Part shown: piece after piece, positions 4,966 to 39,499 of the stretch | Layout: every line of letters starts with the position of its first letter | Position numbering within the stretch: the first letter of the stretch is position 1 | DNA from: a virus | Taxonomy: Duplodnaviria; Heunggongvirae; Uroviricota; Caudoviricetes | Length of the DNA stretch: 40,634 bases | IMG/VR virus record: IMGVR_UViG_2585427727_000015 | Direction: 5' to 3' (one strand) | Made by a program: the position numbers and the translations under genes | Notes under the pieces: generated by a model | Told to the model about the DNA's origin: nothing | Database searches by the model: none | Seen by the model: only the letters and a program-made list of their open reading frames with translations

Positions 4966-5042
4966 TTACCGTTGAGGTAATAATTATGCGTATTTGGTTT
5001 GGTGTCAATAGATATGAGTTAAAAAAATTACCCATTAGGTAA
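4966..5042 (-). promoter_or_regulatory. Leftward early promoter (PL-like) with two operators TTACC-N5-GGTAA
   Basis: Minus-strand TTGACA (5003-5008) and -10-like TAATTA (about 4981-4986); perfect palindromes at 4966-4980 (overlapping +1) and 5028-5042 (upstream of -35), centre-to-centre 62 bp. Confidence 0.6.
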
Positions 5043-5099: not shown

Positions 5100-5684
5100 T
5101 TATTGTTTGTTTTTTTCGTTCTGGTTGATGACAAATTCAATGTAACTTTCGATCTTTGCTTTCTCGGTTTCGGGTAACAATGCGTAGCGCGAGCGGTCAT
5201 AGTTGATGGTCGCAGGGTCGTGCGGGTGAATCAGTAATTCATAGCCGTGACGCCCGAATGCGGATGCAACATTCTCCAGGGTGGAAATGGAAACGCTGAC
5301 CTCATTGTTTAACAGGCGGCTGATTGTCACCTGGGCGACGCCGGATGCGCGGTGAAGTTTTCCCTGTGTTGAAAGGTCGCGGCTTTCGCTCATCCAGCGT
5401 TCCAGGTTGTGAGCCGCCAGCTGACCAATGTCGCTTGGGCCGACAGGCTGAAAACCTTCCTGAGAAAGCGAGCGATCGATATCAAGCCAGTTACGTGGTT
5501 TATTGGCGGCAGCTTCAATTTTTCGCGCAACCTGGTCGCCGATAACCTTCTTGCCAAGAGCCCAGCGGTTTACCAGATTTGCCTGAGTTCCAAGTTTTTC
5601 TGCCATCCGCGTCTGAACACCATTGAATTCACGGTCGATCAAGTCGTTGAGATTTTGCCTGCGGACGTCCTGGATACTTTTCAT
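5100..5684 (-). CDS. Prophage repressor (CI-like; XRE-type HTH, possibly two HTH-like segments; no S24 peptidase domain evident)
   Basis: 194-aa ORF divergent from Cro-like gene; HTH-like segment TRMAEKLGTQANLVNRWALGKK and a second ASGVAQVTISRLLNNEVSVSISTLENVASAFG; flanked on both sides by operator palindromes. Confidence 0.7.
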   Translation of the reverse strand: MKSIQDVRRQNLNDLIDREFNGVQTRMAEKLGTQANLVNRWALGKKVIGDQVARKIEAAANKPRNWLDIDRSLSQEGFQPVGPSDIGQLAAHNLERWMSESRDLSTQGKLHRASGVAQVTISRLLNNEVSVSISTLENVASAFGRHGYELLIHPHDPATINYDRSRYALLPETEKAKIESYIEFVINQNEKNKQ

Positions 5685-5739
5685 TTTCTGGAAAATCGCC
5701 TCATATATGAATCAGTAGATGATTCAATTTAAAGCAATA

Positions 5740-5802
5740 TTACCCAACAGGTAAATGCACCTCATAGGTAACTATCCTTGATTTTTGTTACCTTATGGGT
5801 GA
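5740..5802. promoter_or_regulatory. Tripartite rightward operator (OR-like) between repressor and cro-like gene
   Basis: TTACCCAACAGGTAA (5740-5754, perfect), GCACCTCATAGGTAA (5757-5771, half-site variant), TTACCTTATGGGTGA (5788-5802); plus-strand -35 TTGATT at 5778-5783. Confidence 0.6.
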
Positions 5803-5838
5803 ATATTTATTATCTGAAATAAATATCAGGCAATAGCT

Positions 5839-6069
5839 ATGAGCGATAACGGACATTTCGATTTCAAAAAGCACTGGCTTGCACTTACTCCGGATGAGCG
5901 TGAAGCCTTCGCACAGGAAGCCGGAACGACGAGTCACTATATCCAGACTCACTTAACAGGTAAGCGCAAAATGCCAGGTAAAGTATTGATGAATGGGCTT
6001 TTTAAAGCCTGTAAAACAAGGCAATGGCTGCGCTCAAAAGCAGAACTGGCATACTTCTTCTACTCATGA
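5839..6069 (+). CDS. Cro/YdaS-like small HTH regulator
   Basis: 76-aa ORF divergent from repressor across operator region; HTH-like segment QEAGTTSHYIQTHLTGKRK. Confidence 0.6.
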   Translation: MSDNGHFDFKKHWLALTPDEREAFAQEAGTTSHYIQTHLTGKRKMPGKVLMNGLFKACKTRQWLRSKAELAYFFYS

Positions 6070-6090
6070 TATCCAGCTACAACCCTCTGT

Positions 6091-6114
6091 AGACCGCCAC
6101 CCGGCGGTCTTTTC
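6091..6114 (+). terminator. Rho-independent terminator after cro-like gene (tR1-like)
   Basis: Hairpin AGACCGCC-ACCC-GGCGGTCT followed by TTTT. Confidence 0.65.
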
Positions 6115-6124
6115 ATATCTATTC

Positions 6125-6139
6125 GTACCTCAAAGGTAA
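6125..6139. promoter_or_regulatory. Operator-like palindrome GTACC-N5-GGTAA upstream of replication module
   Basis: One-mismatch copy of the TTACC-N5-GGTAA motif, immediately downstream of the tR1-like terminator. Confidence 0.45.
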
Positions 6140-6219: not shown

Positions 6220-6420
6220 ATGGAAATCATTACACGTATTGATGCCGCAAAGCGCGGACTTAAACGCTACTACACCGGAAAAACATGTAAGCACGGACAT
6301 GACAGTGAACGCTGGGTTTACAACGGACACTGTGTTGAGTGCACCATGGAATCAAACCGTCGTATCAGGGCAGAGATTAAGCAGATCATGATTAATTCCT
6401 CCCCACAACATTCAAGCTGA
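6220..6420 (+). CDS. Small zinc-ribbon-like protein (66 aa)
   Basis: C-x-HGH...C-x-x-C spacing (CKHGHD...CVEC); ATG 6220 with AGGG SD-like sequence; precedes O-like gene. Confidence 0.4.
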   Translation: MEIITRIDAAKRGLKRYYTGKTCKHGHDSERWVYNGHCVECTMESNRRIRAEIKQIMINSSPQHSS

Positions 6421-8009: not shown

Positions 8010-8080
8010 TACCAGCGCGATAGCGCATTTTTTTACGTCTTGATAATTACCTGTTGAGTAATAAAATATTCTAAAATCTA

Positions 8081-8123
8081 TTGATTTCGTGTCTTATGTG
8101 GTTTTTAATTACCTTAGGGGTAA
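8081..8123 (+). promoter_or_regulatory. Promoter with operator at +1: TTGATT-N17-TTTAAT followed by TTACCTTAGGGGTAA
   Basis: -35 8081-8086, -10 8104-8109, perfect palindrome 8109-8123 directly upstream of ATG 8127; weaker copy TTACCTGTTGAGTAA at 8047-8061. Confidence 0.5.
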
Positions 8124-12002: not shown

Positions 12003-12028
12003 GCCGCCAACTATGGCGGCTTTATTTT
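12003..12028 (+). terminator. Rho-independent terminator upstream of terS
   Basis: GCCGCC-AACTAT-GGCGGC followed by TTTATTTT. Confidence 0.7.
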
Positions 12029-12032
12029 GCAT

Positions 12033-12064
12033 GGTACTATTACCACAACGGTAACTATTACCAC
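12033..12064 (+). repeat. Tandem direct repeat GGTA(A)CTATTACCAC x2 immediately upstream of terS start
   Basis: ACTATTACCAC at 12036-12046 and 12054-12064; each copy contains GGTA...TACC half-sites in outward arrangement. Confidence 0.6.
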
Positions 12065-12071
12065 GGTGGTT

Positions 12072-12668
12072 ATGATGCCTGCTGAACCTAAAACCTATAA
12101 ACGCAAATCAACGCAATTTAAGCCACTAACAGCAATGCAGGAGGCTTATTGCCAGTCATACATCAAAACGCCTGAAAACCAGACTCAGGCAGCGATTAAC
12201 GCAGGATTCTCCCCAAATACAGCGGCAGTTAAAGCCAGTGTCATGATGCGCGATGAACGCATTCAAAAACGGATTGCCGAGTTGATGGAGGAGCGCAACA
12301 AACGAATGCGCGTCAGTGCTGATTACGTTCTCATGCGCCTGGTGGAGATCGACCAGATGGACGTGATCGACATCCTCAACGACGATGGGAGCCTTAAACC
12401 AATCCGTGAGTGGCCGAAAATCTGGCGCACTACGCTTAGTGGCTTTGATCTGTCATCGACCATCATGAACATGAACGAGGATTCGATAGAGACAATCCTC
12501 AAAAAAATTAAATGGCCTGACAAGGTGAAGAACCTTGAGCTGATTGGTAAGCATGTTGATGTCAACGCGTTCAAAGAACGTCTGGATGTTAATGTGAATG
12601 TGACAATTGCTGATCGCATAGCAGCAGCCAGGAAGCGACTCAAAGAACGTCAGGATGGTAATCAGTGA
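12072..12668 (+). CDS. terS: Terminase small subunit
   Basis: FKPLTAMQEAYCQSY...AAINAGFSPNTAAVKASVMMRDERIQKRIAE matches the N-terminal pattern of Terminase_2-type small subunits; ATG 12072 with GGTGG SD; directly precedes terL. Confidence 0.75.
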   Translation: MMPAEPKTYKRKSTQFKPLTAMQEAYCQSYIKTPENQTQAAINAGFSPNTAAVKASVMMRDERIQKRIAELMEERNKRMRVSADYVLMRLVEIDQMDVIDILNDDGSLKPIREWPKIWRTTLSGFDLSSTIMNMNEDSIETILKKIKWPDKVKNLELIGKHVDVNAFKERLDVNVNVTIADRIAAARKRLKERQDGNQ

Positions 12669-15218: not shown

Positions 15219-15295
15219 TGGCGTGGCATGCAGGATTCGAACCTGCGACCAACCGCTTAGAAGGCGGTTGCTCTGTCCAACTGAGCTAATGCCAC
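15219..15295 (-). tRNA. tRNA-Arg (anticodon UCU, reads AGA), argU-like
   Basis: 77-nt cloverleaf: acceptor GTGGCAT/ATGCCAC, D-arm GCTC...GAGC, anticodon stem ACCGC/GCGGT with loop CTTCTAA, T-arm GCAGG-TTCGAAT-CCTGC, 3' GCCA. Confidence 0.9.
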
Positions 15296-15617: not shown

Positions 15618-15632
15618 TTACCTGAAAGGTAA
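15618..15632. promoter_or_regulatory. Operator-like palindrome TTACCTGAAAGGTAA upstream of head-gene operon
   Basis: Perfect copy; the 17-nt string TTACCTGAAAGGTAATA is identical at 34573; extended -10-like TGGTAATAAT lies about 60 bp downstream. Confidence 0.5.
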
Positions 15633-32484: not shown

Positions 32485-33117
32485 TTAATGCAGTTTATCT
32501 TTGCTTATAACCAGTAGTCTGTGGGTATGCACATCTTTATCACTGCCCCAACAGAAATCAGCCCACTGGCTATAGAAATCATCCCATGATGCCATGAAGC
32601 TAAGAGGTCTATCTTCTTCAGAGCCATCTGAAACGTATACATTATATCCTGGGGTGTTTATAGCCCAAGAAATCATTCTTTCCCAGAATCTTCTCCCATC
32701 GATTGTTTGTTGCTCATCAGATACAACGATCGCATATTGCTCTAGGAAGAACTGAAAAAAAATCTGAGGCAAACCATGAACAGCACGGTCATGAATAACA
32801 TTAGGCGTACGCCATACCATGATCTGCGTACATGTTCTTTTGGCTTCGACGATATCTTCCCGAAAGATTAACTTAACCGCATACACCGTTTCTGGAGTAT
32901 CGCTGGTAGTAATCATTCTGTAATGATCGCCATTACAAGATTTTACAAGGCGATAACCATAAGGTGTTGTGAATCCCGGAAGAACGAAATCAACCACACC
33001 TTTCGCTAAGTAGCTTTCGGTGTGACTAGTGTTCTTCTCAGACATGTTCAGTTTTCTATCGAAATCTGCTTCTGGGATAATGTATGGCATCGCTTTTCTT
33101 GTTGTATTTGTTCTCAT
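32485..33117 (-). CDS. Orphan hypothetical protein (210 aa), own repressible promoter and terminator
   Basis: Strong SD GGGAGGA 5 nt before ATG 33117; no recognised motif. Confidence 0.6.
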   Translation of the reverse strand: MRTNTTRKAMPYIIPEADFDRKLNMSEKNTSHTESYLAKGVVDFVLPGFTTPYGYRLVKSCNGDHYRMITTSDTPETVYAVKLIFREDIVEAKRTCTQIMVWRTPNVIHDRAVHGLPQIFFQFFLEQYAIVVSDEQQTIDGRRFWERMISWAINTPGYNVYVSDGSEEDRPLSFMASWDDFYSQWADFCWGSDKDVHTHRLLVISKDKLH

Positions 33118-33176: not shown

Positions 33177-33219
33177 TTACCCTTGAGGTAATAGTACGCT
33201 ATTCACCCCCAGTCTGCAA
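33177..33219 (-). promoter_or_regulatory. Promoter TTGCAG-N17-TACTAT with operator TTACCCTTGAGGTAA at +1
   Basis: Minus-strand -35 at 33214-33219, -10 at 33191-33196, perfect palindrome 33177-33191. Confidence 0.55.
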
Positions 33220-33263: not shown

Positions 33264-33920
33264 TCAGAAGAACCCTGCCTTGTCGTTGATGTACTCCGCG
33301 TGCGTCTGGATATCACGCAGGCATTTGCTCACACCAACGATGTAGCAGAACATGGTGGTCAGCTCCGCCGCCGCGCCCGATACGTCATGCCCGTCTTCCT
33401 GTAACTGGTTCAGCAAATTCATCAGCAGTGAGTTCTCCGTCAGGCCGAGAACACCAGACGGCGAATGAATCAGGCTCCGGTAGCCGGGCTTCAGCGGTGC
33501 ACTGTATTCTTTTTTGTCTTCCAGCTTGATCGCCTCCATAATGGCGGGCATGAAGCCTGACAAGACCTTCTCCACTTTTGTTTCTTGTTGTCTTAAACGT
33601 TTCTCGCATTCAATGAAGTAGCGTCGCACCTGGCGACCTTTTTCGTTACGCTCGACCATCGCCAGCTCTTTGGCTGTATCAAGGGTGAGGTGGTACTCTT
33701 TGCGGTTGTGTCCGCCTCTACCAGATGTTTGCTTTCCCAAATTGGAAAGCAAAATATAGTCTTGATTTTCAATGAATTCGTATTCTGAAATGCGATTTGT
33801 AATCCATGCTGCAAACACCTTTTTAACACCTAAAAAAGCGTGCAGATCGCGGGCATTACAAAGTAGGGCTGTTTCGTTAGATATAGTGCCGTTGAATACG
33901 GGGATGAGTTGAGCGTTCAT
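33264..33920 (-). CDS. ant: Antirepressor, AntA/AntB N-terminal domain family
   Basis: 218-aa ORF; N-terminal [39 protein letters not shown]...[27 protein letters not shown] matches the AntA/AntB antirepressor domain pattern. Confidence 0.7.
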
Positions 33921-34078
33921 GATGGCGTCTCCACTTAGCGAATTACATCACCACCGCTGAGACCAATCAGATGGTGGTGAACTGAACGGAGTTGGTCTTA
34001 CCGGCCTAAGTGGTACCGGCGTCCTTTCGGACCCCCATTCAGCCCACCATAATTCTGGCATGACTGTGCTATACGCAT

Positions 34079-34234
34079 AAAAAAACCACGTCTGGCGTGG
34101 TATGCGCCACTTAGTAATCCGGGAGACCAATCCCGGCACTGGATTTTGCCAGTGCCTGATTACTATGGCACAAGAGGAGTGCGATGTAAATTTACCGCAA
34201 AGGTAAATATAAGCACTCCACTTGGTAATTGCAA
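34079..34234 (-). promoter_or_regulatory. Promoter (TTGCAA-N17-TATATT) + operator at +1 (34192-34206) + structured leader + intrinsic terminator (34079-34100) upstream of ant; candidate attenuator or about 120-nt sRNA
   Basis: -35 34229-34234, -10 34206-34211 on minus strand; two-hairpin element 34113-34164; terminator CCACG-CCAGA-CGTGG + T7 at 34079-34100. Confidence 0.45.
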
Positions 34235-34237
34235 ACC

Positions 34238-34495
34238 TTATCTGGTTTGCTTTCGTAATTGTTCGGCACAATAGTCGAGATGTGTTTGCAGATCCTGCAT
34301 AGACATCTGTGAGCTGGTGACGTAGTTAATCAGTGCAGTCAGTTCGGCAAGTGGGCCATCGACATTAAATCCATCCTTATCGAGATCCCGGAGTAATTTC
34401 ATCAAGTGCGATCCCTCCACCAGTGACCTGACGCCTCCCGGCGTGTGAATCCTTTCGGTAAATCCGTCTTCCAGTGGATAGTTATACTGCTGCAT
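34238..34495 (-). CDS. Small protein (85 aa; 90 aa if started at 34510) homologous to the C-terminal domain of the adjacent Ant; LexA-box-controlled
   Basis: HTPGGVRSLVEGSHLMKLLRDLDKDGFNVDGPLAELTAL...MQDLQTHLDYC aligns with Ant residues [39 protein letters not shown]...[11 protein letters not shown]; SD GGAGAAG before ATG 34495. Confidence 0.6.
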   Translation of the reverse strand: MQQYNYPLEDGFTERIHTPGGVRSLVEGSHLMKLLRDLDKDGFNVDGPLAELTALINYVTSSQMSMQDLQTHLDYCAEQLRKQTR

Positions 34496-34517
34496 CTTAA
34501 TCTTCTCCATGCAATAA

Positions 34518-34533
34518 CTGTATATTTATACAG
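34518..34533. promoter_or_regulatory. LexA (SOS) box CTGTATATTTATACAG overlapping the promoter of the Ant-paralog gene
   Basis: CTGT-N8-ACAG with AT-rich spacer, one change from consensus CTGTATATATATACAG; overlaps extended -10-like TGTATAAAT on minus strand, about 20 nt upstream of the ORF. Confidence 0.7.
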
Positions 34534-34572
34534 TAGCAAATAATTTGTTTGCTATCCAGCACGTTTTGCAAA

Positions 34573-34587
34573 TTACCTGAAAGGTAA
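34573..34587. promoter_or_regulatory. Operator-like palindrome TTACCTGAAAGGTAA in divergent region between Ant-paralog gene and tailspike
   Basis: Perfect copy, identical over 17 nt to the site at 15618. Confidence 0.5.
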
Positions 34588-39345: not shown

Positions 39346-39499
39346 CATGGCATTTTTCATGGTACTGATTTCCGGTGACGGTATATAAAACGGTACGGGA
39401 AAAATTGAGATTTGGAAAAATGTTATCACTCAATTGGTTATGGTTATCGTAAATAATTGAGTGGGAGTGATTTGATCCCTGCACTATGAATGAACAAAA

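What the first reader, a model, noticed from the sequence alone, without database searches (positions are those of the whole stretch)
5100..6139. Lambda-like immunity switch built from an unusual repressor
Repressor and Cro-like genes are divergent around a tripartite operator (spacings 17 and 31 bp), with a bipartite operator at the leftward promoter and intrinsic terminators after both genes. The 194-aa repressor appears to have two HTH-like segments and no recognisable C-terminal autopeptidase motif, consistent with antirepressor-mediated rather than RecA-mediated induction.
Basis: partly seen in the sequence, partly recalled or inferred. Interest (0 to 1): 0.4.

Follow-up and report, generated by a model that had tools for sequence, protein, structure and literature searches.

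The report
Known Rep–Ant phage immunity switch
This is the immunity switch of a phiV10/epsilon15-type E. coli prophage; its uncleavable repressor is switched off by a small, SOS-controlled antirepressor, a system already solved structurally in Salmonella phage SPC32H and present in about one in ten E. coli genomes.

Summary
The sequence features are confirmed. Repressor 5100-5684(-) and the Cro-like gene 5839-6069(+) diverge around three TTACC-N5-GGTAA operators (5740, 5757, 5788). Two more operators sit at the leftward promoter (4966, 5028), and an intrinsic terminator follows each gene.

The repressor has two HTH-like segments and no S24 peptidase domain. It is 100% identical to phiV10 p40 and ZX5 ORF21. 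It aligns over its full length with SPC32H Rep (PDB 5D50_A, E=4e-42).

The window also carries the partner gene. A small Ant at 34238-34495(-) matches 5D50_E (E=4e-46). A near-consensus LexA box (34518-34533) precedes it and is conserved in five related phages.

RecA still acts, through LexA. In the solved homologue the second HTH-like segment is a dimerisation domain, followed by a p53-like tetramerisation and Ant-binding domain.

The operator motif is not confined to the switch. It occurs 9 times exactly in the window (0.01 expected), at promoters across the genome, with conserved spacings of 62 and 18 bp. The epsilon15 RefSeq record already annotates seven such sites as repressor-binding.

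Novelty: already known. Interest: low.

The parts
5100..5684 (-). rep: 194-aa repressor. N-terminal Cro/C1-type HTH DNA-binding domain, a middle HTH_3-like domain (dimerisation domain in the solved homologue), and a C-terminal tetramerisation/Ant-binding domain.
   Evidence: Full-length match to SPC32H Rep 5D50_A, E=4e-42. Pfam HTH hits in both halves, no S24. 100% identical to phiV10 p40. Domain roles taken from PMC9986798.
5060..5079 (-). Intrinsic terminator after rep
   Evidence: 8-bp stem with 6 GC pairs, followed by a T run.
5740..5754 (.). Operator, here called OR3: TTACCCAACAGGTAA. It abuts an invariant TAATAT hexamer on the minus strand (5742->5737), a candidate -10 for the rep promoter.
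   Evidence: Exact motif. Invariant columns in the six-phage alignment. Hexamer read directly. The promoter role is inferred.
5757..5771 (.). Operator, here called OR2: GCACCTCATAGGTAA. 17 bp from OR3.
   Evidence: Two mismatches to the motif. ACC...GGTAA invariant across six phages.
5788..5802 (.). Operator, here called OR1: TTACCTTATGGGTGA. It lies inside the rightward promoter, whose -35 TTGATT (5778-5783) is invariant.
   Evidence: The scan tool's alternative promoter is TTGTTA-17-TATTAT at 5785-5813.
5839..6069 (+). Cro-like gene: 76-aa five-helix HTH protein
   Evidence: phrog_35 'transcriptional repressor', E=5.6e-13. AF2 model pLDDT 86.6. Top Foldseek PDB hits include the 434 and P22 c2 DNA-binding domains and YdaS, but E is only about 0.5-1. 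Weak in-register HTH similarity to the Rep N-terminal domain. DNA binding is not shown.
6091..6110 (+). Intrinsic terminator after the Cro-like gene
6125..6139 (.). Operator-like site GTACCTCAAAGGTAA, between the cro terminator and the next gene (starts 6220)
   Evidence: One mismatch. Also present in phiV10 and Tyrion. No <=1-mismatch site at this position in epsilon15.
4966..4980 (.). OL1 operator. It starts at the last base of the leftward promoter's -10 (TTGACA 5008->5003, AATTAT 4985->4980) and covers the transcription start.
5028..5042 (.). OL2 operator, 62 bp from OL1 centre to centre, upstream of the -35
   Evidence: The 62-bp spacing is conserved in the related phages.
34238..34495 (-). 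ant: small (85-aa) antirepressor
   Evidence: Match to SPC32H Ant 5D50_E, E=4e-46. Start at the second ATG, as in phiV10 p24 and epsilon15 gp19.
34518..34533 (.). LexA box CTGTATATTTATACAG (18/20 to the consensus over 34516-34535), immediately upstream of ant
   Evidence: Conserved at the same place in phiV10, epsilon15, SPC32H and Tyrion.
34573..34587 (.). Rep operator between ant and the tailspike gene
   Evidence: Exact motif. The syntenic site in epsilon15 is annotated as repressor-binding.
34192..34206 (.). Rep operator fused to the promoter TTGCAA-17-TATATT (34234->34206, minus strand) of the second antirepressor cassette
33264..34155 (-). Second antirepressor cassette: isrK RNA (34079-34155), C4 antisense RNA (33970-34054) and a 218-aa AntA-type antirepressor (33264-33920) with an Ant-like C-terminal domain
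   Evidence: Rfam hits at 67.7 and 61.2 bits, both above gathering score. Pfam AntA and phrog_377/phrog_450. 42% identity to the small Ant.
8047..8123 (.). Operator pair (8047-8061 and 8109-8123), 62 bp apart, at the promoter(s) after the replication genes
   Evidence: Promoter TTGATA-16-TAAAAT carries the first operator in its spacer. The syntenic epsilon15 site is annotated.
12032..12072 (+). Extended -10 TGGTACTAT followed by an operator pair (12040-12054 and 12058-12072), 18 bp apart, directly in front of the small terminase gene
   Evidence: The syntenic pair and TGTTACTAT are present in epsilon15, where the site is annotated as repressor-binding.
15618..15632 (.). Single operator upstream of the head-gene block (gp3 homologue)
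   Evidence: The syntenic epsilon15 site 2931-2947 is annotated.
33177..33191 (.). Single operator upstream of a 210-aa gene of unknown function (32485-33117, minus strand)
   Evidence: A TACTAT hexamer abuts it, read directly. No promoter passed the scan threshold.

Best explanation
The finding is the immunity region of an integrated Uetakevirus (phiV10/epsilon15-type) prophage. It works as an SPC32H-type Rep/Cro/Ant/LexA switch.

Repression. Rep binds 15-bp palindromes (TTACC-N5-GGTAA) through its N-terminal HTH domain. By homology it acts as a tetramer, built from a middle dimerisation domain and a C-terminal p53-like tetramerisation domain. One operator lies inside the rightward promoter. 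Two lie over the candidate rep promoter. Two lie at the leftward promoter, 62 bp apart. The same operator is fused to promoters elsewhere in the genome: after the replication genes, before the small terminase gene, before the head genes, before the tailspike gene, and before a second antirepressor cassette. Each transcription unit is therefore silenced directly.

Induction. Rep has no autopeptidase domain and is not cleaved. DNA damage activates RecA, LexA cleaves itself and leaves the box in front of ant, and the small Ant protein is made. Ant binds Rep's C-terminal domain, breaks up the tetramer and releases it from DNA.

The 76-aa Cro-like HTH protein is the first gene of the rightward transcript. 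It presumably binds the same operators to shut down rep.

Shown here: homology, domain content, the operator motif with its enrichment and conservation, the LexA box, and the terminators. Taken from the literature on homologues or the identical protein: repressor function, tetramer formation and Ant binding. Inferred: which operator controls which promoter, DNA looping, and the role of Cro.
For: - Rep aligns over its full length with SPC32H Rep (5D50_A, E=4e-42; 5D4Z, E=4e-20).
- The small ORF matches SPC32H Ant (5D50_E, E=4e-46).
- No S24 domain; HTH signatures in both halves of Rep.
- LexA box at 34518-34533, 18/20 to the consensus, conserved upstream of ant in phiV10, epsilon15, SPC32H and Tyrion.
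- Operator motif: 9 exact copies against 0.01 expected. It is equally enriched in phiV10, epsilon15, SPC32H, BUCT711 and Tyrion at syntenic positions.
- Half-sites and the promoter -35 hexamers are invariant in otherwise diverged intergenic DNA.
- The presumed recognition-helix segment NLVNRW is invariant among Reps that are only 43-78% identical.
- The epsilon15 RefSeq record annotates seven such sites as repressor-binding.
- Rep is 100% identical to phiV10 p40 and to ZX5 ORF21. Overexpressing ZX5 ORF21 abolished free phage and cut lysis-gene transcripts by more than 99.9% (PMC9782041).
- SPC32H Rep binds DNA as a tetramer, and the Ant tetramer binds two Rep dimers (PMC9638917).
- Domain order in SPC32H Rep is DNA-binding, dimerisation, then tetramerisation/Ant-binding (PMC9986798).
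- phiV10-species prophages were induced 21- to 47-fold by a DNA-damaging microcin (bioRxiv 10.64898/2026.05.26.727859).
- From my own knowledge of Kim & Ryu 2013 (J Virol 87:11775), which is not held in the library: LexA represses SPC32H ant, and Rep is not cleaved.
Against: - Nothing here tests DNA binding, Ant binding or non-cleavage for this particular protein, which is only about 42% identical to SPC32H Rep.
- The two primary SPC32H papers could not be read.
- The Cro-like assignment rests on gene position, one PHROG hit and a fold match with weak statistics.
- The best operator match (5740) lies on the rep side of the switch. That is the reverse of lambda, and its meaning for autoregulation is unknown.
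- The candidate rep promoter has no recognisable -35.
- A second, larger antirepressor is present and could be the main inducer.
Confidence: 0.9

Rival explanations
1. A classical lambda-type switch. The repressor cleaves itself with RecA's help, and the antirepressor genes play no part in induction.
For: Divergent rep/cro genes, a three-part operator and two leftward operators resemble lambda. phiV10-type prophages respond to DNA damage.
Against: No S24 peptidase domain. The C-terminal two thirds of Rep align with the SPC32H Rep fragment 5D4Z, which is a dimerisation plus tetramerisation module. A LexA-boxed ant gene explains the response to DNA damage.
Confidence: 0.02
2. The TTACC-N5-GGTAA sites are not Rep operators. 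They are bound mainly by another protein, such as the Cro-like protein or a late regulator, or they are simply part of a shared promoter architecture.
For: Many sites overlap -10 hexamers (GGTAAT-AAT, or xAxxxT-TACC), so part of their conservation could be promoter conservation. No binding data are available here.
Against: The palindromic half-site furthest from the -10 hexamer is equally invariant. Auxiliary sites such as 5028 overlap no conserved promoter. Three sites cluster between rep and cro. The Rep recognition-helix segment is invariant wherever the motif is invariant. The epsilon15 curators annotate these sites as repressor-binding.
Confidence: 0.05
3. In this prophage the larger AntA-type antirepressor, gated by the C4/IsrK RNAs, is the main inducer rather than the small LexA-controlled Ant.
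For: The cassette is present and carries an Ant-like C-terminal domain. In ZX5, overexpressing a different large (Bro-N type) antirepressor pushed the phage towards lysis.
Against: The cassette's own promoter carries a Rep operator, so it should be silent until Rep is already inactivated. The large antirepressor varies between relatives and is absent from epsilon15 and SPC32H. The small ant gene and its LexA box are conserved in all of them.
Confidence: 0.1

Closest known systems
Salmonella phage SPC32H Rep / Ant / LexA antirepression system (PDB 5D4Z, 5D50; Kim & Ryu 2013; Kim et al. 2016)
   Same: Rep is a full-length homologue (E=4e-42). Ant is a close homologue (E=4e-46). There is a LexA box in front of ant, the same TTACC-N5-GGTAA operator core at the same genome positions, the same divergent rep/cro layout and the same virus genus.
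   Different: Rep is only about 42% identical to SPC32H Rep. This prophage adds a second antirepressor cassette (isrK, C4 RNA, AntA-Ant fusion) downstream of ant, which SPC32H lacks. The central 5 bp of the operators are less A/T-rich.
E. coli phages phiV10 (p40, p41, p24) and vB_EcoP_ZX5 (ORF21)
   Same: Rep and the Cro-like protein are 100% identical, and the region is 98-99% identical in DNA. The phiV10 record already notes 'two helix-turn-helix motifs'. ZX5 ORF21 was shown to block the lytic cycle.
   Different: The large antirepressor cassette differs: Bro-N type in phiV10 and ZX5, AntA type here. Neither record nor paper defines the operators or names the small Ant.
Salmonella phage epsilon15 gp38 repressor with annotated repressor-binding sites
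   Same: Same operator core and the same dispersed, syntenic sites before terS, before gp3, between ant and the tail fibre gene, at PL and after the replication genes. Seven are annotated as repressor-binding.
   Different: 42% identical Rep. A third operator at PL. No site after the cro terminator and no second antirepressor.
Lambda CI / Cro / OR-OL switch
   Same: Divergent repressor and cro genes, three operators between them, further operators at the leftward promoter, and SOS-triggered induction.
   Different: No S24 autopeptidase. The repressor is a tetramer through a p53-like domain rather than through a CI-type C-terminal domain. Induction is by antirepressor. Operator spacings are 17/31 bp rather than 24/23 bp. 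Operators lie at late and accessory promoters too, and terminators are followed by fresh promoters.
LexA-controlled antirepressors of other phages: coliphage 186 Tum, Gifsy-1/Gifsy-3 GfoA/GfhA, N15 AntC
   Same: The logic is the same: an uncleavable repressor is inactivated by a small protein whose gene is repressed by LexA (own knowledge; Lemire et al. 2011 is cited in PMC7380047).
   Different: I assume the proteins are unrelated; I did not compare the sequences. By homology, SPC32H-type Ant binds the repressor's C-terminal domain rather than its DNA-binding surface.
Phage P1 C1 repressor with dispersed operators, and the P1/P7 immI module (c4 antisense RNA controlling ant)
   Same: One repressor with operators scattered over many transcription units. 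A C4-family RNA sits directly upstream of an antirepressor gene.
   Different: The P1 C1 operator is asymmetric and I assume C1 is unrelated to Rep (own knowledge, not compared here). Here the C4 module is an accessory cassette, and its function was not tested.
Rco repressor of plasmid pLS20 (TetDloop tetramerisation domain)
   Same: According to PMC9986798, SPC32H Rep shares an N-terminal DNA-binding domain and a C-terminal p53-like tetramerisation domain with Rco, which loops DNA. The conserved 62-bp operator pairs here are compatible with looping.
   Different: Rep has an extra middle dimerisation domain. Looping has not been shown for Rep.

Membership tests
SPC32H-type Rep/Ant/LexA antirepression switch | Repressor homologous to SPC32H Rep over all three domains (DNA-binding, dimerisation, tetramerisation/Ant-binding) | tested here: met
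   Residues 1-190 align with 2-197 of 5D50_A, E=4e-42. Residues 89-190 align with 5D4Z, E=4e-20.
SPC32H-type Rep/Ant/LexA antirepression switch | Repressor lacks an S24/LexA-type autopeptidase domain | tested here: met
   Pfam scans of the whole protein and of each half find only HTH families. NCBIfam finds none either.
SPC32H-type Rep/Ant/LexA antirepression switch | Small Ant protein homologous to SPC32H Ant encoded in the same phage | tested here: met
   34238-34495(-) matches 5D50_E at E=4e-46 over 83 residues. phrog_450 hit.
SPC32H-type Rep/Ant/LexA antirepression switch | LexA box at the ant promoter | tested here: met
   CTGTATATTTATACAG at 34518-34533, 18/20 to the consensus. Conserved in phiV10 (20822), epsilon15 (19841), SPC32H (19958) and Tyrion (21721).
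SPC32H-type Rep/Ant/LexA antirepression switch | Rep is not cleaved during SOS; Ant binds Rep and releases it from DNA; Rep binds DNA as a tetramer | not testable with these tools
   Known only for the SPC32H homologue (PMC9638917; PMC9986798). Needs biochemistry.
SPC32H-type Rep/Ant/LexA antirepression switch | Palindromic operators at the divergent rep/cro promoters | tested here: met
   Three sites at 5740-5802. The motif is strongly enriched and conserved in six phages, SPC32H included. Binding itself was not tested.
Lambda-type (CI/Cro, RecA-cleaved) immunity switch | Divergent repressor and cro genes around a multipartite operator | tested here: met
Lambda-type (CI/Cro, RecA-cleaved) immunity switch | Repressor C-terminal S24 peptidase domain (Ser-Lys dyad, Ala-Gly cleavage site) | tested here: not met
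   No S24 hit. The C-terminal part is homologous to the 5D4Z fragment instead.
Lambda-type (CI/Cro, RecA-cleaved) immunity switch | Cro protein that binds the same operators | tested here: inconclusive
   The 76-aa product has a confident five-helix HTH model, but its fold matches are weak (E about 0.5-1). It gives one PHROG hit and no Pfam, NCBIfam or PDB sequence hit.
P1/P7 immI-type module (C4 antisense RNA plus antirepressor) | C4-family RNA directly upstream of an antirepressor gene on the same strand | tested here: met
   Rfam C4 at 61.2 bits (gathering score 45) at 33970-34054(-). The AntA gene starts at 33920(-).
P1/P7 immI-type module (C4 antisense RNA plus antirepressor) | C4 RNA pairs with the ant leader and blocks translation | not tested
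   Complementary target sites were not searched for.

The most novel reading that the evidence does not exclude
The most novel reading my evidence does not exclude has two parts.

First, Rep silences the whole prophage directly, rather than through a lambda-style cascade. Its operators are fused to the promoter of every transcription unit, including the terminase/head operon and the tailspike gene. Operator pairs are held at exactly 62 bp (six helical turns) or 17-18 bp, so that one tetramer bridges two sites.

Second, induction is a two-stage loop. The LexA-controlled Ant first releases Rep. That de-represses a second, Rep-operated cassette (isrK, C4 RNA and an AntA-Ant fusion protein), which reinforces the decision.

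The dispersed sites are already annotated in epsilon15. As far as I could find, the fixed phasing and the feed-forward cassette have not been described or tested.
Probability: 0.35. Interest if true: 0.35.

Novelty: already known. Interest (0 to 1): 0.15.

Why it matters
It matters little as a discovery. The repressor is identical to one already annotated in phiV10 and tested in ZX5. Its homologue has crystal structures alone and bound to its antirepressor. The module sits in 541 of 5426 complete E. coli genomes.

The check has practical value. It gives a correct annotation for genes that RefSeq still labels 'helix-turn-helix domain-containing protein' and 'hypothetical protein'. It provides an operator map for phiV10-type prophages, which are used as O157 reporter phages. 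It also points to the conserved 62-bp operator phasing and the second antirepressor cassette as cheap, testable additions to the SPC32H model.

Tried and rejected
- The primary papers could not be read: Kim & Ryu 2013, Kim et al. 2016 and Kropinski et al. 2007 are not held. Their content is cited second-hand or marked as my own knowledge.
- A single-sequence AlphaFold2 model of Rep was unusable (mean pLDDT 44.9). I did not use it.
- Sequence searches with the Cro-like protein found nothing in the PDB, even at E<=10, and nothing meaningful in Pfam or NCBIfam. Only PHROGs and the predicted fold gave leads.
- The two halves of Rep show no detectable similarity to each other, so a recent internal duplication is rejected.
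- The IMG/VR search with Rep returned 80 loci that are all 100% identical. That shows how common the gene is but was useless for studying operator covariation. I used annotated phages at 42-78% identity instead.
- PADLOC gave no defence-system hit for the 210-aa gene downstream of the antirepressor cassette.
- I set aside the 2-mismatch motif hit inside the cro ORF (5949), and most other 2-mismatch hits, as probable chance matches (11.5 expected at <=2 mismatches).
- No consensus -35 could be found for the rep promoter or the tailspike promoter.
Full report
WHAT THE WINDOW IS

The 1.5 kb around the finding is 98-99% identical to E. coli phages phiV10, vB_EcoP_PAS61, vB_EcoP_ZX5 and others of the genus Uetakevirus (epsilon15-like podoviruses). 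The window looks like an integrated prophage. An integrase gene lies at 1-1251. An attachment-site core, ATTGAGTGGGAGTGATT, lies at 39456-39472. It differs by one base from the published attP of phiV10 and ZX5 (PMC9782041). The 1.2-kb immunity module occurs at 95% identity or more in 541 of 5426 complete E. coli genomes. All 80 best IMG/VR hits encode a 100% identical repressor.

CHECK OF THE OBSERVATION

- The 194-aa ORF at 5100-5684(-) and the 76-aa ORF at 5839-6069(+) are divergent.
- Three copies of TTACC-N5-GGTAA lie between them, starting at 5740 (exact), 5757 (2 mismatches) and 5788 (1 mismatch). The spacings are 17 and 31 bp.
- Two exact copies at 4966 and 5028 flank a consensus leftward promoter, TTGACA-17-AATTAT, on the minus strand at 5008->4980.
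- Intrinsic terminators follow rep (5079->5060) and the Cro-like gene (6091-6110).
- The motif is far above chance: 9 exact copies in the window against 0.01 expected.
- In alignments of the rep-cro and leftward-promoter regions from six phages, the half-sites and the -35 hexamers are invariant while the rest has diverged. The phages carry Reps only 42-100% identical to the window's. The conserved hexamers are TTGATT for the rightward promoter and TGTCAA (TTGACA on the other strand) for the leftward one.
- Pfam finds HTH signatures in both halves of the repressor. The N-terminal half gives sub-threshold YdaS/HTH_3 matches at residues 21-67. The C-terminal half gives HTH_3 at 25.8 bits, above the cut-off, at residues 106-147. 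There is no S24 peptidase domain.

WHAT IT IS

The repressor aligns over its whole length with the repressor of Salmonella phage SPC32H, whose structure is solved (5D50 chain A, E=4e-42; the 92-198 fragment 5D4Z, E=4e-20). It is 100% identical to phiV10 p40, which the GenBank record already describes as a 'putative transcriptional repressor, two helix-turn-helix motifs'. It is also 100% identical to ZX5 ORF21. Overexpressing ZX5 ORF21 abolished free phage and reduced endolysin and holin transcripts by more than 99.9% (PMC9782041).

According to PMC9986798, SPC32H Rep has three parts:
- an N-terminal DNA-binding domain;
- a middle dimerisation domain;
- a C-terminal domain that tetramerises the protein through a p53-like fold and also binds the antirepressor.

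PMC9638917 summarises that Rep binds DNA as a tetramer. The two DNA-binding domains that read one palindrome come from different dimers. A tetrameric Ant binds two Rep dimers and breaks up the tetramer.

THE PARTNER IS IN THE WINDOW

The ORF at 34238-34510(-) probably starts at the second ATG (34495), as annotated in phiV10 and epsilon15. It matches SPC32H Ant (5D50 chain E) at E=4e-46. Directly upstream lies CTGTATATTTATACAG (34518-34533), an 18/20 match to the E. coli LexA consensus. A LexA box occupies the same position in phiV10, epsilon15, SPC32H and Tyrion.

From my own knowledge of Kim & Ryu 2013 (paper not held), SPC32H Rep is not cleaved during SOS. LexA represses ant there, and a point mutation in that box makes the phage virulent. 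A 2026 preprint reports 21- to 47-fold induction of phiV10-species prophages by a DNA-damaging microcin. That fits an SOS link.

THE CRO-LIKE GENE

Its product is 100% identical to phiV10 p41 and about 75% identical to epsilon15 gp39. That is much more conserved than Rep. It has no Pfam, NCBIfam or PDB sequence match, but it hits phrog_35, 'transcriptional repressor' (E=5.6e-13). An AlphaFold2 model built from 20 homologues is confident (pLDDT 86.6) and shows five helices. Its best PDB fold matches include Cro/C1-type HTH domains: 434 repressor, YdaS, P22 c2, controller proteins and SinR. TM-scores are 0.5-0.6 and E-values only about 0.5-1. Its HTH aligns weakly, in register, with that of the Rep N-terminal domain. 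'Cro-like' is therefore reasonable but not proven.

HOW IT MOST LIKELY WORKS

The operator at 5788 lies within the rightward promoter, so Rep bound there blocks it (inferred). The sites at 5757 and 5740 cover the region upstream of, and abutting, an invariant TAATAT on the minus strand (5742->5737). This is the best candidate for the rep -10, although no -35 is recognisable. That arrangement suggests negative autoregulation. It is also unlike lambda, because the best-matching site is on the rep side.

At the leftward promoter, one operator starts at the last base of the -10. The second lies 62 bp upstream.

The same two arrangements recur elsewhere: the operator either sits in the spacer running into the -10, or starts at the last base of the -10.
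- 8047 and 8109, after the replication genes. TTGATA-16-TAAAAT carries the first operator in its spacer.
- 12040 and 12058, after an extended -10 (TGGTACTAT), directly before the small terminase gene.
- 15618, before the head genes.
- 34573, between ant and the tailspike gene.
- 34192, fused to TTGCAA-17-TATATT.
- 33177.

The same positions carry the motif in phiV10, epsilon15, SPC32H, Tyrion and BUCT711. Pair spacings are exactly 62 bp in 11 of 12 cases. The pair before terS is 18 bp apart in the three relatives where both sites were found (phiV10, epsilon15, Tyrion). The epsilon15 RefSeq record already annotates seven of these sites as repressor-binding, so the dispersed regulon is not new.

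The NLVNRW segment in the second helix of the N-terminal HTH is invariant in all five Reps. This matches the invariant half-site. The fixed 62-bp phasing (six turns) would suit bridging by a tetramer. This is an inference, and it fits the looping role proposed for this type of tetramerisation domain.

COMPARISON AND VERDICT

The region passes every sequence-testable criterion for the SPC32H-type Rep/Ant/LexA system. It fails the defining autopeptidase criterion of the lambda family, although it shares lambda's divergent layout.
1. RecA still triggers induction, through LexA.
2. The second HTH-like segment is a dimerisation domain in the solved homologue.
3. Control is distributed over many promoters rather than being a lambda-style cascade.

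The system is already known and very common, so interest is low.

NOTICED BESIDES THE FINDING

Downstream of ant on the same strand lies a second antirepressor cassette, which epsilon15 and SPC32H lack. It consists of:
- a Rep-operated promoter;
- an isrK-family RNA (34079-34155);
- a C4 antisense RNA (33970-34054);
- a 218-aa AntA-type antirepressor.

Residues 128-210 of the AntA-type protein are 42% identical to the small Ant. This suggests a two-stage, self-reinforcing induction circuit. That is inferred only, and it is the most novel reading left open.

Noticed in passing
window 33264-34235 (minus strand): A second antirepressor cassette lies downstream of the small ant gene. It comprises a promoter (TTGCAA-17-TATATT) fused to a Rep operator (34192-34206), an isrK-family RNA (34079-34155), a C4 antisense RNA (33970-34054) and a 218-aa AntA-type antirepressor. 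The C-terminal domain of that protein is 42% identical to the small Ant. Epsilon15 and SPC32H lack the cassette; phiV10 and ZX5 carry a Bro-N type antirepressor instead. It suggests a feed-forward step in induction.
   Followed up: partly
window 4966/5028 and 8047/8109; syntenic pairs in L001, L002, L003, L084, L085: Operator pairs sit exactly 62 bp apart (centre to centre) in 11 of 12 cases across six phages, and 63 bp in the other, although the DNA between them has diverged. This is compatible with a Rep tetramer bridging two sites on the same face of the helix.
   Followed up: partly
window 12003-12075: The late (terminase/head) operon begins with a terminator (12003-12020), then an extended -10 (TGGTACTAT, 12032-12040), then two operators 18 bp apart that end 2 bp before the likely terS start codon (12075). 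The phiV10 record starts terS further upstream, so the operators fall inside its annotated CDS. That start is probably wrong.
   Followed up: partly
window 32485-33117 (minus strand), with operator 33177-33191 upstream: A 210-aa protein of unknown function (phrog_1349, no Pfam or PADLOC hit) sits behind a Rep operator abutting a TACTAT hexamer, downstream of the antirepressor cassette.
   Followed up: partly
window 15222-15295 (minus strand): A tRNA gene (Rfam 73.3 bits) lies in the region between the terminase genes and the head genes. SPC32H has a tRNA-Arg at the corresponding place.
   Followed up: no
window 6220-6420 (plus strand), with operator-like site 6125-6139 upstream: A 66-aa cysteine/histidine-rich protein (CKHGH...CVEC, phrog_1081, function unknown) is the first gene after the cro terminator. 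The operator-like site before it is present in phiV10 and Tyrion; epsilon15 has no <=1-mismatch site at that position.
   Followed up: no
window 39456-39472 and 1-1251: The prophage ends are visible. An attachment-site core, ATTGAGTGGGAGTGATT, differs by one base from the published attP of phiV10/ZX5 and is followed by what looks like host DNA. The integrase gene lies at the very start of the window.
   Followed up: no
L001-L003, L084, L085 versus the window: Reps that are only 42-45% identical (E. coli, Klebsiella and Salmonella phages) keep the same operator core and the same recognition-helix segment. Ant and the Cro-like protein are far more conserved than Rep. This raises the question of whether these phages are truly immune to one another's repressors, and whether Ant from one can induce another.
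   Followed up: no
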